Source of the DNA: Callorhinchus milii
Lineage: Eukaryota
DNA: 64,000 nucleotides
NCBI RefSeq assembly: GCF_018977255.1
Contig: NW_024704870.1
Span: forward strand, 62,001-126,000
Direction: 5' to 3'
Positions 7,401-62,300 of the stretch are shown here, one piece after another. The position numbers are program-made. Numbering within the stretch: position 1 is the first letter of the stretch; each line of letters starts with the position of its first letter.

Positions 7401-10400
7401 GCTGGGTTGTCAAAAATCAGCCTTGTGCTCCAACGTAGGTCAAGTAATACCCATTGATTATCTTGACTTCATCTACTGCAAGTAACATAATAGCAATGAT
7501 TGCATTTGATGGAGTGATTGTACATTTTCATCTGGAGCGCACACCTGTGTCCTGCAAAAACAGCGTGGATCAAGAAACAAAACTATTATTTGCCAATTAG
7601 TTTTGTAGTTGTCATTACCCCAGATAATAATTTGACAGTCGACCAGCAAACGCGTTCTCACGTACTGCAAGAAAAACAGAGGCGCGAGTATGGAGTAAGG
7701 AAACTTGACCAACTTTCGCACTGCCTGGGATTCGAACCCATGTCATCTCACTAACGATTAAGGTACACGTCTCCACTGACATTAAAATATCACTTTAAAA
7801 CAAATCAGTGTGAAAACATATGTAACAGCATTTCGAGTGCCCGCTGTAACAAACAAATAATTGGAGTAGGCATTTTTACTGCAAAATATACAGTCAATTC
7901 AATTGTAAGAATAATCTGAGAAGCGCTTTGAGAAGTCTCAATGACGTGCTGCGACATAAAGTCAAATGGAAAGATTATTTTATTTGTTATTTTCTTTTTA
8001 TTGCTGTTATTATTAACATGCTAAACTTCCAAAAACATTTATCACAATCTTCTCTCTGTTGGTGAAGAACATCTCAACTATACAGTAAGAAAAGTATCAC
8101 ATATTTTAGCTGACTTGACAAATCTCAACAAGATGTGAGCTATGGTGGCATTTGGCAGAAGGTTTGTTACACTCTCTGTCGCCAACTCCATTGTGTTGTT
8201 TCCCAGCTTTGGTTGTGATGAGGGTTATTGTACGAGGTTTCCTATGATGTGTATCACTGTGGTGCAGACTGAGTGCACAGTGATACATAGCGGAGTCTGT
8301 CAGCCGCAGGTCGGCGATGGTTAAAACGCTGATTTTCTTGGCAGTGTCAAGAGAAGCAGAAATATGATCTCCAGTGGGGTTTCCTCCCTCTCCTGAGGGT
8401 TTTCTGTGGAACAGGTATTTCATTCCCTCGCCAGGGGTCTGTCGGTACCAGGAGACGCTGAAATCCTGTCCACAGAATCCTGAATATTGGCAATGTAAAT
8501 TTATCCTCTCACCAGTGAAAGCCGCTTGTTCCGTCGGTGACTGAGAAACTGTATAACTCGATCCTGCGGGAGCAAATTACAGTTTACTTAGAGTCATGGA
8601 ATCATTGAATCTTTCAGCACAGAAAGAGGCCATTCAGCCCATTGTGTCTGTGAAAAGAGCTTTGAAAAAAGCCAACCAATAAATCCCCTCTCCGCAATGA
8701 ACACATAGACTTTATAATTTTTTGATGCATCCAGCAATTCCATACTGAAATTATCTTTCGAATCTGTTTCCACCACCCTTGAGCAGCACATTGCATTCAA
8801 TAACATTTCGTGAAAATAAATCTTCTGCTCTCCCCTCTTGTTCTTTTACCACTTATCATACATTTGGGTTCATTGGTGACTGAACCACTTGCAAGTGGAA
8901 GCATGTTATCCTTCTCTGCTCTATCAAAGACAGTCACAGCTCTGAACACTTAATCTAAATCTCCCCTAAACCTTCGTGCTCTCAGGAGAAATTGCCAGAT
9001 TCTTCATACAAATAATTCCCTTCTTCTGGTATCATTTTGCTAAATCCTTTGCCCCTGTCCAAGGCCTTCACCATGTGTCCGTGAAAGGTACAAAGATATG
9101 TAGGATTATGTTACATCAACAGTGGAAGGAGCAATGAGGATGTATTAAAAGTAGGCATTTCTTTAGCTGAGCCATGTTTTATTGCAGACCAAACCTCTAT
9201 TTTATGACTGTAACCATTGATATACTCTCATAAATGACCGTTTAATAAGGTTTGTTTCTCTAATCTTATTTTGTTTGCTGTTGGGTTGTCACATTGAGGC
9301 TTTGGGTGTCTGGATCATGGGAATGTTTAGCAGAGAATCAGGTGTCAGGTTGTACCGTTAACTCAGGGTTTACAGTTGAAGCAAATGGAAAGTTCTCTGC
9401 TGTAAATTCGTTACTTTAACATCGCTGCTGGAGGAGTTTATTCTCTGGTTGTTGCCAATATCAGTTTCTCTCAGTCTGTGGCTGCTCATTGCAGTTTCAT
9501 TGTGCCAGAAGCAAAGTGCTTTCTCTCTCTCTCTCTCTTTATGTGTTGCTTCCTTTCTTGCTCTGNNNNNNNNNNNNNNNNNNNNNNNNNNNNNNNNNNN
9601 NNNNNNNNNNNNNNNNNNNNNNNNNNNNNNNNNNNNNNNNNNNNNNNNNNNNNNNNNNNNNNNNNNNNNNNNNNNNNNNNNNNNNNNNNNNNNNNNNNNN
9701 NNNNNNNNNNNNNNNNNNNNNNNNNNNNNNNNNNNNNNNNNNNNNNNNNNNNNNNNNNNNNNNNNNNNNNNNNNNNNNNNNNNNNNNNNNNNNNTCTATT
9801 CTTTCAGATTCGTTCCCTCTTTCTTTCTTTCTGTCCCTCTTTCTGTCTTATTCTTTTTTCATTCTTTCTTCAAATGTCATGGCTTACATTTTCGCAACAT
9901 GCAGTGTTTCTGCAGGCTTGCCTATTGACTTGCTTGTTGGTGTAGAATAAAGCAGATTACCTGGGATCTCTCAGCGAATATGGAGAGAGGAAAGTGTGTT
10001 AACGTTTCAGGTGATGAACTTGATTCAGAAATTTAGACCCCACTTTTCGGGAGAACAGAGGAGGTTATTGATGATAATACATCATTTTACCCAGCTCAAG
10101 TACAAATTCATTACCCAATTAATATCAATTTACTCTGGTCATGTTCCTTTGGAACTACTATGCAATCCAAATCAGTGACTTTCAAAACATGGAAATAAAA
10201 GTTGGTCATTTGAGAAACAAACCTTGATGTAGTATTCGGTTAGAATAATGTTTTTTGACAAACTCACGTGAATAAACTTTTATGTTATTCGTTAGAAATG
10301 TTTCGCACTTACTTTTCGTTACAGTTACTTTGGTTCCTGACCATCTTCTGTATATTCCTTATAATAACACAGTACACAGCTCTGACTCTACAAGGTGCAA

Positions 10401-59300: not shown

Positions 59301-62300
59301 ATGTATTTTATATAAAGCATTATCACATTGTTGGGAGGTCTTGATACGCTTCACAGAATTTGCTGTCGCGTTAAGTGCTGTGTATTTTGGGGGGAGAAAC
59401 CCGATAGCCAATTTCGCGCAGCAGTGCCTAAAATAAAACAGTGCTGGAATGTATTACCAAATAGTTATTTCTTAAAAAAGATTATTTTCCTTGGAACATG
59501 GATCAGACAAACCACTAAACACGTTTTTGAATTGAATTATTATTTGAAAATTTATTACCTCCGGGTTACAAATCAAGGGGGATTCTACTTACTGCTGTTT
59601 AAACAGAGGCATGTGTGTGCTTGAGCAGAGAGGAAACAAGCTTATGTATTCATCCTGCCCGGGAAACGAATCCCTGTCATCTCGCTTGCGAGGCGAGAAC
59701 TCTAACCACTGAACTAAAGGTTTCCCTCCACCAGTTGTTGTTGAAATGCAGTTGACAATCAGCATCGACATGAATTAGCTCAACACGACCTCACCTGACA
59801 TGAAGGTTCCCAGCACAAGACAGACAGCAAACAGCCTCATTGCTGCTCTTCAGTGTGTGTGGTTGTGTCTGTGCCATTAGTTTGCTGATAACCCGCAGTG
59901 ATTGTCAGCATTGGCGGCGCCGCAGTCTCACGTCACGTCAATGGCATCTCAGCCGCGTTTCAACACAACAACCAATTGCTTTTATACCGCGGCTTTCACC
60001 AGTTTCCAGGGGAGGGAATCAACTCACTCAGATCCTGGTAATCCTGGAAGCCAAAGCTCCAACGGGATCTATGATAATAACCGTAATATAATAATGGTTT
60101 GCATTAGGCATGAAGTCTTAGCGGGCCTTCGATTCGCCTGAAAACGCTTCACAGCTTACAATGTGAAGTGAATGTATTGTGGCAGCCAAACATGCACAGC
60201 AATGTCCGACCAGCATTCGTGGATTGAGTGACCAATTTATCACCATTATTTTTTTGTAAAAATTATGACCGGCGGAAAAGCAAACAACCACTAAGATTAA
60301 TCCCTCCAAAACCAAAAACAATAATAAATTGGTCATTTTCAAACTACGACTGTTTGTGGGATATTGCTGTGCGCAATTGGCTGCCGCGTTCTTCAGTCAA
60401 TTCACTTTACAGTGTGTTCTGTGAAGCGCTTTGGGACGTCCTCCCGACGTGAAGAGCGCTATATCAAATGCAAGGATTATTATTATTATTATTATTCCTG
60501 CCGACTGCTGGGTAAACAGAGGTTTGTGCCTTAAGAAAATTGGACCAACATTTCGCGCTGCCGGGTATCGAACCCGAGTCATTCGCTTGCGAGACATGTG
60601 CTCTAACCGCGATTATTATAAAAATAGTAAACCATGGGATCATTGAGTTGATCTATGCTTCCTTCTTGGCATCATTGAGTGTTTTGTGTGACAGTCAGAT
60701 GCGCTGTCAATGTGATGTTCTCTTTGTGTTTCTGTCTCTTCGCCCTTCCCACAGGAAATCGCTGCTGCGGCCTCGAGAGACAGAAGAAAAACCCACTAAA
60801 CACTGTCAGTTTTTGTACTAGTCTCTGACTGGTTCCCATCACTGGTTGGTTGGAGAGCACAGTAACACACAGCGCTGTCAGAATGCTCCAATAGAGAGAT
60901 GGTTAAACTGGTGAACTTTGACGATGTTTGGAGCTCAACAGAGAATCGCTTTTTAGCAAAGTCTGCTTGATACGTGCAACCACAGGAATGCATTTTAAGC
61001 ACATCATGTTGTTGTGTTTCTTGTTCTCGATACCAGTACAAATAGTAGATGCTCCGATTTGTATTGTAACGACATTCCATGGTCACATTTTCTCCTACTT
61101 TCCGAGGCACTGAAGACAACATCTGTGTTACAGAATCTCCGTGGGTGAGTCCTGGAATACAAGAATTGTGGAGACTTGTAGCTCAGTCATCAGAGCGCTC
61201 GCCTCGTAAGAGTGAGAACATTGCCGGGCAGGTCTTTTTTCACACACTTTTCTTTTAAATTTGCAGTAAGTAGGAACCCGGTTGTTAGTCGATTCGCGGA
61301 TCACTTTTTCGTGGATAATAACCCTTTTCAAAATAATAATCATTTGTTTAATCAATCCCGGACTGTTTTTGGGACAACTCGCAAAAAAGATCGTCATTAC
61401 GCTTTACAATGTTTTCTTCGAACCGCTTAGAGACGCCTCCAAGTCATGTGAAAGCACTATATCATTACTACATGAATAGTACCAGGAAGACCAGTGAGAA
61501 AACTATTCAATAAAACTGATTTTGAAAATTAATTGAAACGCTAGCTATTGTTACAAGAGTTTACCTATCAAATTGGCAGCCAGAGCCAGAAAATCACTGG
61601 CTCCCCACATCCCCATCACTCACTGCACAGCTTTGCCCTTTTGGTTGATAAGTTATTGATACTGATCTGAGACGCAAAGCTCTGAGATGGTTGACGCTTC
61701 ATCGCTATGACCTCATTTTCTAATCAAGTGACGTGGATATTATCTGTTCAATGTGGGAGCGAACTAATGTGTCACGGTTCCTACTCTCAGGGGAGTGGGA
61801 GGGGAGAATGAGTCTCTTTGGAAACATTTCAGTATGGTGGCAGGCTGGGCAGGGATATGTGGAGCAGATTTGCATGTTTCTAGGGTATCAAAGAGTTAGG
61901 AAGGGCAATAATTAGCCAAATTTAAAGGTTATGGTGAGAATCTTGAACTGCCACTCCGCCTCCATCGTCTGAAACTGCATCCCACAGTCCCTCCTCCTCG
62001 TCCCCTCTTTTCTTTCCTTCAAGACATATTTCAGGACCATTCTCTTCGACCTTGCTTTGCTTCACTGTTTCCTCACCTGCTCTCCACGCTCCTCCAAACC
62101 GACCACTAAATGAGATTCGAAATATCGGTTATCCAGCAACTTGGGATGTCCTTCCGAAGTGTAATGCTCTATGTGCATGTAATTTTATTGTTGTTCTTGT
62201 TCGGATATCTCAAACAGCTTCACAGGATATAATTTTGAAGTGTAATGATTGTAATAAGATTTCCAGGATAGCCCCGACGCACAATGAGACTATAACATGC

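What the first reader, a model, noticed from the sequence alone, without database searches (positions are those of the whole stretch)
8223..61616. RSS layout allows cross-cassette joins, including TCR-V-tipped and three-V-domain chains
Each NAR D has a 5' 12-RSS in deletional orientation downstream of many 22/23-RSS V segments. By the 12/23 rule three extra routes are open. (a) A NAR V could use another cassette's D and J. (b) A conventional leader-bearing V such as 25301 could join D 21963 and J 21524 and sit on top of a supporting V. (c) A supporting V such as 49895 could join the next cassette's D-J (36389/35954) and splice to supporting V 33258, giving NARV-SV-SV-C. RSS compatibility is seen in the sequence; actual use is inference.
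[Added by the scan's program, not by the reader: the finding's places include an assembly gap (unread letters, written N; its length is only estimated) at 9566 to 9794, 20765 to 21003, 50965 to 51168. Whether the letters on both sides are continuous or in frame is not known: test that first.]
Basis: inference. Interest (0 to 1): 0.65.

Follow-up and report, generated by a model that had tools for sequence, protein, structure and literature searches.

The report
Elephant shark NAR-TcR cassette array
This is the already described array of double-variable-domain T-cell receptor delta (NAR-TcR) gene cassettes of the elephant shark; its recombination signals do permit joins between cassettes, but nothing here shows that such joins are made or useful.

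Summary
All genes lie on the minus strand. Three complete NAR cassettes follow one plan: leader, NAR V with a 22-spacer RSS, D with 12-spacer RSSs on both sides, J with a 23-spacer RSS and a splice donor, then a leaderless supporting V with a 23-spacer RSS. Conventional V segments with 23-spacer RSSs lie between them. RSS-like sites far exceed chance: 22 against 0.10 expected.

Each NAR D has same-orientation V-type RSSs upstream: 14, 9 and 3. The three gaps lie in J-to-supporting-V introns. The RSS pairs of routes (b) and (c) sit on one ungapped contig.

The sequence is Callorhinchus milii, where NAR-TcR genes are published.

No evidence of use could be obtained. Each D's own NAR V is 380-389 nt away; the next V is 3.3-3.9 kb away. 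Only NAR V carries the a-b loop cysteine thought to bond the supporting V's CDR1 cysteine, so routes (b) and (c) leave that cysteine unpaired. Route (c) also needs three in-frame assemblies.

Verdict: known locus, testable but unsupported hypothesis, modest interest.

The parts
54160..54202 (-). Cassette A: NAR V leader exon (MSLLCVSISFLFLQ, donor GTAAGT)
53467..53772 (-). Cassette A: NAR V exon. It has the a-b loop Cys, FYRR in place of WYR, and a 3' extension ending ...DSDGGC.
   Evidence: V-set; nearest solved single domains are shark VNARs
53429..53466 (-). Cassette A: NAR V RSS, CACAATG-22-ACAAAAAGG
53086..53113 (-). Cassette A: 5' 12-RSS of the NAR D (read on + strand: CACAGTA-12-ACAAAAACC)
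53070..53085 (-). Cassette A: NAR D coding, 16 nt
53042..53069 (-). Cassette A: 3' 12-RSS of the NAR D, CACAGTG-12-ACAAATACC
52691..52729 (-). Cassette A: NAR J 23-RSS, weak (heptamer CACAGTC, nonamer 6 of 9)
52635..52690 (-). Cassette A: NAR J (..EYTEDGSGTNLTVTE), phase-1 donor A|GTAAGT
50965..51168 (.). Assembly gap inside the J-to-supporting-V intron of cassette A
49895..50196 (-). Cassette A: supporting V exon. Acceptor cag|GA, no leader, CDR1 Cys.
49856..49894 (-). Cassette A: supporting V 23-RSS, CACAGTG-23-ACAATAACC
37479..37521 (-). Cassette B: NAR V leader exon
36786..37091 (-). Cassette B: NAR V exon
36748..36785 (-). Cassette B: NAR V RSS, 22-nt spacer
36405..36432 (-). Cassette B: 5' 12-RSS of the NAR D
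36389..36404 (-). Cassette B: NAR D coding, 16 nt
36361..36388 (-). Cassette B: 3' 12-RSS of the NAR D
36010..36048 (-). Cassette B: NAR J 23-RSS, weak
35954..36009 (-). Cassette B: NAR J with phase-1 donor. The single N at 35944 is intron base +10.
33258..33559 (-). Cassette B: supporting V exon, acceptor cag|GA
33219..33257 (-). Cassette B: supporting V 23-RSS
32141..32481 (-). Second supporting-V copy, a pseudogene. The acceptor AG is lost and the second Cys is Ser. Its 23-RSS is kept.
23041..23083 (-). Cassette C: NAR V leader exon
22367..22652 (-). Cassette C: NAR V exon
22329..22366 (-). Cassette C: NAR V RSS, CACAATG-22-ACAAAAAGC
21977..22004 (-). Cassette C: 5' 12-RSS of the NAR D (read on + strand: CACAGTG-12-ACAAAAATA)
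21963..21976 (-). Cassette C: NAR D coding, 14 nt
21935..21962 (-). Cassette C: 3' 12-RSS of the NAR D, weak nonamer (ACACTTACC)
21580..21618 (-). Cassette C: NAR J 23-RSS
21524..21579 (-). Cassette C: NAR J with phase-1 donor
20765..21003 (.). Assembly gap inside the J-to-supporting-V intron of cassette C
19388..19728 (-). Cassette C: supporting V exon (19728-19427) and its 23-RSS (19426-19388)
25262..26214 (-). Conventional V 25301: leader 26214-26169, V exon 25612-25301, perfect-consensus 23-RSS 25300-25262
8223..10959 (-). Fourth, degenerate cassette. It holds a NAR leader remnant (10794-10959). The V exon and D are absent. J 10367-10313 has a 1-nt deletion, and its RSS 10405-10368 has a 22-nt spacer. 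Gap 9566-9794 lies in the intron. Supporting V 8563-8262 is intact, with RSS 8261-8223.
12924..18309 (-). Conventional V segments with 23-RSS: C 12963 (second Cys is Phe), A 14725, B 18011
27392..27732 (-). Conventional V C 27431 (Trp41 is Leu) with 23-RSS
40218..48743 (-). Conventional V segments with 23-RSS: D 40257, C 42272, A 44060, and B 48123 (split by an insertion)
56805..59153 (-). Conventional V segments with 23-RSS: D 56844 and C 58852
60809..61616 (-). A-like V: leader ATG at 61616, V exon ending at 60847. Its heptamer is broken (AACCAGTG in place of CACAGTG).

Best explanation
[quoted passage not shown] It holds tandemly duplicated blocks. Each block carries conventional V segments plus one NAR-TcR cassette.

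A cassette is an Ig-cluster-like unit: NAR V with a 22-spacer RSS, D with 12-spacer RSSs on both sides, and J with a 23-spacer RSS. Its J ends in a phase-1 splice donor. That donor splices to a leaderless supporting delta V, which has its own 23-RSS for a second rearrangement to delta D-J outside the window.

Every V type here carries a 22/23-spacer RSS and every NAR D carries a 5' 12-RSS. The 12/23 rule alone therefore does not confine a NAR D to its own V (shown).

Inferred: joining is dominated by the cognate V, which lies 380-389 nt from the D against at least 3.3 kb for any other V. Occasional cross-cassette joins of type (a) give ordinary NAR-TcR chains. Joins of types (b) and (c) would be rare by-products without a matched interdomain cysteine, and are unlikely to be selected.
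For: Species and family.
- The supporting V exon is 93% identical to a C. milii RefSeq model and NAR V is 99% identical to the same model.
- NAR V has a leader, the a-b loop Cys and no Trp in the WYR motif. The supporting V has no leader and a CDR1 Cys. These are the features listed for elephant and nurse shark NAR-TcR in PMC1845163 (passages read) and they are met.
- NAR V's nearest solved single-domain chains are shark VNARs.

RSS reality.
- 22 sites against 0.10 expected.
- Between cassettes B and C the RSSs are more conserved than the surrounding non-coding DNA, which matches at 464 of 655 positions (71%). The NAR V RSS matches at 36 of 38 and the D 5' RSS at 25 of 28. The D coding segment matches at only 6 of 14.

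Splicing. J donors and supporting-V acceptors are both phase 1 and give an AGA codon at the junction. A database model, P0004, shows ...TVTK-R-KSYTVSQ, consistent with that junction.

Distances and counts of upstream RSSs.

Cysteines: the a-b loop Cys is present only in NAR V.

Precedent for promiscuous use of 23-RSS V segments in shark thymocytes: IgM/IgW V joined to TCR delta D, as cited in PMC12227049 and PMC5931798 (passages read).
Against: - No rearranged sequence of any kind was available, so the claimed dominance of within-cassette joins is inference from distance alone.
- The conventional V RSS at 25300 is closer to consensus than the NAR V RSS, which could favour route (b) more than I assume.
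- The interdomain disulfide is called 'putative' in PMC1845163.
- The orientation relative to delta D-J-C is not visible in the window.
- Linkage of J to supporting V crosses an assembly gap in 3 of 4 cassettes.
- The intact supporting V 8262 sits behind a degenerate NAR part. That would fit real cross-cassette use by joining or by splicing. However, the many 1-nt indels there may be sequencing errors.
Confidence: 0.7

Rival explanations
1. Cross-cassette joins are a working diversification route. NAR V uses other cassettes' D-J. Conventional leader-bearing V segments join NAR D-J and sit on a supporting V. Supporting V segments join the next cassette's D-J to give NAR V-SV-SV-C chains that are expressed.
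For: - Spacers and orientation are 12/23 compatible, on one ungapped contig for (b) and (c).
- All splice phases are compatible.
- V 25301 has a perfect consensus RSS 3.3 kb upstream of D 21976-21963.
- Sharks are reported to make Ig V-to-TCR delta D trans-rearrangements (passages).
- An intact supporting V (8262) lies behind a NAR part that lacks V and D.
Against: - No junctions or transcripts were found.
- There is no a-b loop Cys in the conventional or supporting V sequences read to pair with the lower supporting V's CDR1 Cys.
- Route (c) needs three in-frame assemblies.
- The cognate V is about ten times nearer.
- Conventional and supporting V domains are built to pair with a gamma V, and an unpaired one on top of the chain would expose that face (inference).
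Confidence: 0.08
2. Strict cassette autonomy. Each NAR V-D-J behaves like a shark Ig cluster and rearranges only within itself. The legal cross-cassette RSS pairs are never used, because of local accessibility or restrictions beyond the 12/23 rule.
For: - V, D and J lie within about 850 nt of each other, as in Ig-type clusters.
- The RSS plan, V-23 / 12-D-12 / 23-J, is the IgH-type plan and not the TCR delta plan (recalled knowledge).
- V and D 5' RSSs, spacers included, are conserved together between cassettes.
Against: - The supporting V RSSs of the same array must work over long distances to reach delta D, so the region is open to long-range joining (inference).
- Nothing in the RSS sequences marks the cognate pair.
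- Trans-rearrangements are reported in sharks.
Confidence: 0.17
3. The layout is partly an assembly artefact. The near-identical cassettes and the three gaps mean that contigs could be misordered, misoriented or collapsed, so the 'downstream of many V' relation may not hold on the real chromosome.
For: - Three gaps sit at the homologous place of three cassettes.
- Cassettes A and B are 94-99% identical.
- Cassette D differs from C near its J by 7 one-base indels against only 3 mismatches in 286 nt, which looks like low read quality.
Against: - Gap flanks are colinear with the ungapped cassette B in order and strand.
- The key RSS pairs of (b) and (c), and one example of (a) (NAR V 36786 to D 21963), lie within the single contig 21004-50964.
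- The repeating block order is regular.
Confidence: 0.05

Closest known systems
[quoted passage not shown] 2007, PMC1845163; 2014, PMC3964593)
   Same: Same species and same gene family. NAR-TcR V has a leader, the a-b loop Cys and no WYR Trp. The associated delta V has no leader and a CDR1 Cys (passages read; features met).
   Different: The passages I could read describe the protein features. They do not give the RSS plan, the cassette order or any cross-cassette possibility. The supplementary note of the 2014 paper, which may cover the loci, could not be seen.
Nurse shark doubly rearranging NAR-TcR (Criscitiello, Saltis and Flajnik 2006, PNAS)
   Same: A three-domain delta chain made by two separate V(D)J assemblies, with a NAR-type V perched on a dedicated supporting delta V (as summarised).
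   Different: A different species, reported as about 420 Myr diverged. The paper itself is not held, so I could not check whether it discusses RSS compatibility between cassettes.
TCR mu of marsupials and monotremes
   Same: Tandem clusters of (V-D-J)-(V-D-J)-C that encode a chain with two V domains, the upper one diverse and unpaired.
   Different: It arose independently and is VH-related, not NAR-related. The supporting V is germline-joined in marsupials. Each cluster has its own C, whereas here many cassettes share one downstream delta D-J-C (inference; C is not in the window).
Shark Ig V-to-TCR delta D trans-rearrangements and TAILV segments (Criscitiello 2010; Deiss 2019)
   Same: A precedent that a 23-RSS V outside the canonical set is joined to a 12-RSS D in shark thymocytes and expressed (as cited).
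   Different: Those give ordinary two-domain chains through delta D. The proposal here uses the NAR D-J and adds a domain. Neither paper is held.
IgH-type cluster RSS plan (V-23 / 12-D-12 / 23-J)
   Same: The NAR V-D-J part has this plan, with segments about 320-380 nt apart.
   Different: The J is followed by a splice donor into another rearranging V, not into a constant exon. That this is 'the IgH plan' is recalled knowledge, not taken from a call.

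Membership tests
NAR-TcR (doubly rearranging TCR delta) | N-terminal V segment with a typical leader exon | tested here: met
   3 of 3 complete NAR V have the leader MSLLCVSISFLFLQ, donor GTAAGT, a 387-388 nt intron and an in-frame junction.
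NAR-TcR (doubly rearranging TCR delta) | Cysteine in the a-b loop of NAR V | tested here: met
   3 of 3 have ..R(Q/E)EC ESLTINC... The feature is as listed in PMC1845163.
NAR-TcR (doubly rearranging TCR delta) | Canonical Trp of the WYRK motif absent from NAR V | tested here: met
   3 of 3 read MEFYRR.
NAR-TcR (doubly rearranging TCR delta) | NAR V related to IgNAR V domains | tested here: met
   The best single-domain matches in the PDB are shark VNARs, for example 4hgk_C at E 1e-13. The Pfam V-set domain is matched.
NAR-TcR (doubly rearranging TCR delta) | Own D and J with RSSs, allowing a separate VDJ assembly | tested here: met
   3 cassettes have 12-D-12 and 23-J. Assembly itself was not observed.
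NAR-TcR (doubly rearranging TCR delta) | Supporting delta V without a leader, entered by a splice acceptor | tested here: met
   4 of 5 copies have the acceptor cag|GA in phase with the J donor, and 1 of 5 (32180) has lost it. No upstream leader with a signal-peptide-like sequence was found: 2 of 5 copies had no candidate, and those before the other 3 do not resemble signal peptides.
NAR-TcR (doubly rearranging TCR delta) | Conserved Cys in CDR1 of the supporting V | tested here: met
   5 of 5 read ..QYSG(F/Y/S)CG...
NAR-TcR (doubly rearranging TCR delta) | Supporting V rearranges to delta D-J and is spliced to C delta | not testable with these tools
   Delta D, J and C are not in the window. 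Only the 23-RSS of the supporting V is seen.
   The pairs for (b) and (c) lie within contig 21004-50964.
   All intact J donors and supporting-V acceptors are phase 1.
   For routes (b) and (c) there is no a-b loop Cys in the representative read of conventional families A-D or in the supporting Vs. It is met for route (a).
   Protein databases gave only germline gene models. There is no germline signal-joint relic. No repertoire paper was found.

The most novel reading that the evidence does not exclude
The array is a combinatorial domain stacker. Any upstream 23-RSS V, conventional or supporting, can be joined to a NAR D-J and spliced onto the next supporting V. Elephant shark thymocytes would then make and express TCR-V-tipped delta chains and chains with three V domains. 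The intact supporting V 8262 behind a gutted NAR unit would be kept in use through such cross-cassette joining or splicing.
Probability: 0.07. Interest if true: 0.7.

Novelty: already known. Interest (0 to 1): 0.3.

Why it matters
NAR-TcR is one of only two known receptor chains built from two independently rearranged V domains. How strictly the two assemblies are coupled is unknown in the text I could read.

The map made here covers all segments, RSSs, splice phases and defects. If cross-cassette joins occur, they would multiply NAR-TcR combinatorial diversity. They would also show that domain number in an antigen receptor can vary somatically. If they do not occur, the array becomes a natural case of restriction beyond the 12/23 rule.

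As it stands, the sequence shows permission, not use.

Tried and rejected
- Exact-consensus RSS patterns were too strict. They gave 0 twelve-spacer sites and 1 twenty-three-spacer site, so I replaced them with a scored scan.
- I searched for germline signal-joint relics, heptamer to heptamer with up to 2 mismatches. There were 0 matches against 0.31 expected.
- The octamer ATGCAAAT was tried as a promoter mark, to ask whether supporting Vs lack promoters. It gave 3 sites against 5.0 expected, which is uninformative.
- I looked for transcript-derived proteins that would show what sits on supporting Vs. There were 8 hits with the supporting V and 2 with NAR V among longer proteins. Of the 9 distinct proteins, 8 read through RSSs, end in the unrearranged supporting V heptamer, or are partial Ig-like models. 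The ninth, P0008, is a short chimeric V-like model. None is evidence of joins.
- dN/dS of the supporting Vs was used to ask whether the orphan SV 8262 is still constrained. It gave 0.21-0.43 against the intact copies, on 16-25 differences per pair. That is suggestive at most and cannot isolate its lineage.
- The apparent J frameshift of the fourth cassette was considered as proof of a dead cassette. I set it aside because one-base indels are abnormally dense there: 7 indels against 3 mismatches in 286 nt.
- The primary papers (Criscitiello 2006 and 2010, Deiss 2019, Ott 2021) are not held. One search term was malformed.
I redid the comparison from window coordinates.
Exons were searched one by one. 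The folding of hypothetical V-on-V chains therefore stayed untested.

Full report
**What is there**

The window is 64,000 bases with four N stretches: 9566-9794, 20765-21003, a single N at 35944, and 50965-51168. A scored RSS scan required CAC, at least 5 of 7 heptamer matches, at least 6 of 9 nonamer matches and a sum of at least 13. It listed 38 sites. Of these, 21 are 22/23-spacer signals on the minus strand that directly follow an open V-like frame.

With spacers limited to 12, 22 and 23 and a sum of at least 14, there are 22 sites, 19 minus and 3 plus. In 100 dinucleotide-preserving shuffles the mean was 0.10 and the maximum 2. The three plus-strand sites are the 5' signals of three D segments. 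The signals are therefore real and all genes read on the minus strand.

**Anatomy of a cassette**

Three complete cassettes share one plan. I call them A (about 54202-49856), B (37521-33219) and C (23083-19388). In order, each contains:
- a leader exon (MSLLCVSISFLFLQ, donor GTAAGT);
- an intron of 387-388 nt;
- a NAR-type V exon;
- the V RSS, CACAATG-22-ACAAAAAG(G/C);
- about 316-325 nt of spacer DNA;
- a D of 14-16 nt with 12-spacer RSSs on both sides;
- about 320-340 nt of spacer DNA;
- a weak 23-spacer RSS;
- a J of 56 nt (..EYTEDGSGT(N/K)(L/V)TVT(E/K)) ending in a phase-1 donor, A|GTAAGT;
- an intron of roughly 1.8-2.4 kb, with length uncertain where gapped;
- a V exon with no leader that starts at the acceptor cag|GA, also phase 1, so the junction codon is AGA;
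- a consensus-like 23-spacer RSS, CACAGTG-23-ACAATAACC.

Between cassettes lie conventional V segments of four families, which I call A to D. For V 25301 I verified an in-frame leader at 26214-26169, a 556-nt intron and a perfect consensus 23-RSS. Candidate leaders of families A and C were seen. Leaders of D 40257 and D 56844 were not checked.

**Identity**

- The supporting V exon is 93% identical, and the NAR V exon 99% identical, to the Callorhinchus milii RefSeq model XP_007910237. That model is itself a concatenation of germline V exons from this very region that reads through RSSs.
- All six V types match the Pfam V-set model, five above the curated cut-off and family B below it.
- The nearest solved single-domain chains to the NAR V are shark VNARs. 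The same search with the supporting V gave only multi-domain antibody constructs and was uninformative.
- PMC1845163 (passages read) lists these features for elephant shark and nurse shark NAR-TcR: a leader, an a-b loop cysteine and loss of the WYRK tryptophan in NAR-TcR V; no leader and a CDR1 cysteine in the associated delta V. All are met here: 3 of 3 NAR V and 5 of 5 supporting V for the cysteine.
- PMC3964593 (passage read) confirms NAR-TCR in the C. milii genome.

This is a known gene family in the species where it has been reported.

**The gaps, tested first**

Each of the three long gaps lies inside a J-to-supporting-V intron, in cassettes D, C and A. On both sides the flanks align colinearly, in the same order and strand, with the ungapped cassette B. 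No exon or RSS touches a gap. The single N at 35944 is the tenth intron base after the J donor of cassette B. Reading frame across the gaps is not an issue because they are intronic.

What stays unknown is intron length and, strictly, physical continuity. The linkage of J to supporting V in three of four cassettes is an assembly inference.

The ungapped contig 21004-50964 contains both partners of these pairs:
- route (b): V 25301 to D 21976-21963 and J 21579-21524;
- route (c): SV 49895 to D 36404-36389 and J 36009-35954, then SV 33258;
- one example of route (a): NAR V 36786 to D 21976-21963.

**Check of the observation**

Every coordinate in the finding is exact (see the observation check). 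Same-orientation V-type RSSs upstream number 14 for the D of cassette C, 9 for B and 3 for A.

Qualifications:
- Several counted segments are defective. SV 32180 has lost its acceptor AG and its second Cys is Ser. B 48123 is split by an insertion. In C 12963 the second Cys is Phe, and in C 27431 Trp41 is Leu.
- Two V-like segments within the span, ending at 60847 and 30954, have heptamers without CAC. The first of these is the one whose leader ATG at 61616 marks the end of the finding.
- A fourth cassette keeps only a leader remnant, a J and an intact supporting V (8262). Its NAR V exon and D are absent.
- A fifth NAR V is cut by the window start.

**Are the signals under constraint?**

Cassettes B and C match at 464 of 655 positions (71%) in the DNA between segments. 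Against that background:
- NAR V RSS: 36 of 38;
- D 5' RSS: 25 of 28, with an identical spacer;
- D 3' RSS: 23 of 28;
- J RSS: 31 of 39;
- D coding: only 6 of 14.

The V and D 5' signals are conserved while the D itself diverges, as expected of working segments.

**How it most likely works**

Shown:
- The NAR part has the plan V-22/23, 12-D-12, 23-J.
- Every other V in the array has a 23-RSS.
- A V cannot join a NAR J directly, but any V upstream of a NAR D is a legal partner for its 5' signal.
- A NAR D's 3' signal is a legal partner for any downstream NAR J.
- Splice phases allow any NAR J to be read into any intact supporting V.

Inferred:
- The cognate V is favoured by proximity. Heptamer-to-heptamer distance is 380-389 nt, against 3.3-3.9 kb for the next V and 13.5 kb for SV 49895 to the D of cassette B.
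- RSS quality does not favour the cognate V. Its heptamer is CACAATG with a 22-nt spacer, whereas V 25301 is a perfect consensus.

I therefore expect some cross-cassette joins at the DNA level. The published Ig V-to-TCR delta D trans-rearrangements in nurse shark are a precedent (cited in PMC12227049 and PMC5931798; passages read).

The three routes differ in outcome:
- **Route (a)** gives an ordinary NAR V-supporting V-C chain and would simply add combinatorial diversity.
- **Routes (b) and (c)** put a conventional or supporting V on top of a supporting V. The sequences read for these V types have no cysteine in the a-b loop. The CDR1 cysteine of the lower supporting V would then lack the partner that PMC1845163 calls a putative interdomain bridge. 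The upper domain would also be a gamma-pairing V left unpaired (inference).
- **Route (c)** additionally needs three in-frame assemblies on one chromosome.

A rearranged NAR VDJ could be spliced past its own unrearranged supporting V to a downstream supporting V that has rearranged (inference).

**Evidence of use**

None could be obtained.
- The protein collections returned only germline gene models.
- The window holds no signal-joint relic.
- Four paper searches found no text on cross-cassette NAR-TcR joins, three-V chains or an elephant shark delta repertoire. The searched library lacks the primary papers and supplements were closed. This is therefore not a claim that the idea is absent from print.

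**A hint in the other direction**

The fourth cassette has an intact supporting V: acceptor, open frame, CDR1 Cys, and an RSS identical to those of SV 33258 and SV 49895. It sits behind a NAR part that lacks V and D and shows one-base deletions in the leader, the J and the J RSS spacer. If real, that supporting V could only be used with another cassette's NAR VDJ.

Two cautions apply. Against cassette C, the stretch around this J shows 7 one-base indels but only 3 mismatches in 286 nt, a pattern typical of read errors. And dN/dS of SV 8262 against the other intact copies (0.21-0.43, on 16-25 differences per pair) cannot isolate its own lineage.

**Comparison and verdict**

- The locus is a member of the NAR-TcR family. 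Seven defining features were tested and met, and linkage to C delta is not testable.
- It works like the nurse shark system and, by convergence, like TCR mu.
- Novelty of what is in the sequence: already known.
- Interest: 0.3.
- The boldest reading not excluded is somatic stacking of extra V domains. I put it at about 0.07, and it would be of high interest if shown.

Noticed in passing
window 8223-10959: A fourth NAR cassette is gutted. A leader remnant remains, the V exon and D are missing, and the J and its RSS spacer each lack one base. Its supporting V 8563-8262 and RSS are fully intact. The deletion ends are not at RSSs. One-base indels are unusually dense here (7 against 3 mismatches in 286 nt versus cassette C), so some lesions may be sequencing errors.
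   Followed up: partly
window 36786-36830 and 53467-53511, compared with 22367-22390: NAR V of cassettes A and B ends ...YYCKARYLWRWDSDGGC. That is about 20 nt longer than cassette C (...YYCRARYDWD) and adds a cysteine. The extra stretch has D-like GGT/TGG-rich sequence, yet the 22-spacer RSS is unchanged. The origin is not resolved. One idea is an old germline V-D fusion.
   Followed up: no
window 51415-51891 and 35013-35194: A G-rich minisatellite (46-nt unit on the + strand, about 10 copies in cassette A and 3-4 in B) lies in the NAR J-to-supporting-V intron. A short 20-nt repeat abuts the gap at 21004. Repeats of this kind may be why the same intron is gapped in three cassettes.
   Followed up: no
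window 34285-34505, 46074-46290, 48292-48527, 60291-60496 and many weaker copies: A roughly 220-nt interspersed repeat, 90-96% alike among these copies, is scattered through the array. One copy splits V B 48123. A second repeat type with a tRNA-like look lies in the leader introns of family A and D V segments. Neither was classified.
   Followed up: no
window 25524-25551, 40480-40507, 57067-57094: A cryptic 12-spacer RSS-like site (perfect heptamer CACAGTG, nonamer 6 of 9) lies inside framework 1 of all three family D V exons.
   Followed up: no
window 32141-32481: A second supporting-V copy lies directly downstream of SV 33258 with no NAR unit of its own. The acceptor AG is mutated and the second Cys is Ser, but the 23-RSS is kept.
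   Followed up: yes
window about 27400-44950 (protein P0001, XP_007910237): The 870-aa RefSeq model 'uncharacterized protein LOC103191091' strings together germline V exons of this region (A 44060, NAR V, SV 33258, SV 32180, C 27431) and reads through RSSs. It is an annotation artefact, not a multi-V protein.
   Followed up: partly
proteins P0004 (unnamed source) and P0009 (Hemiscyllium ocellatum), not in the window: Both models show a contiguous NAR V-(D)-J followed by a supporting V that still reads into its heptamer. This may mean germline-joined NAR VDJ genes exist elsewhere in chimaera or shark genomes, or it may be a modelling artefact.
   Followed up: no
window 1-688: A fifth NAR V (leader and the first part of the V exon) is cut by the start of the window, so the array continues beyond it.
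   Followed up: no
window 60809-60860 and 30900-30960: Two V-like segments have heptamers without CAC (AACCAGTG and CCCAGTG). The second also lacks the second Cys. They are probably dead for recombination.
   Followed up: yes
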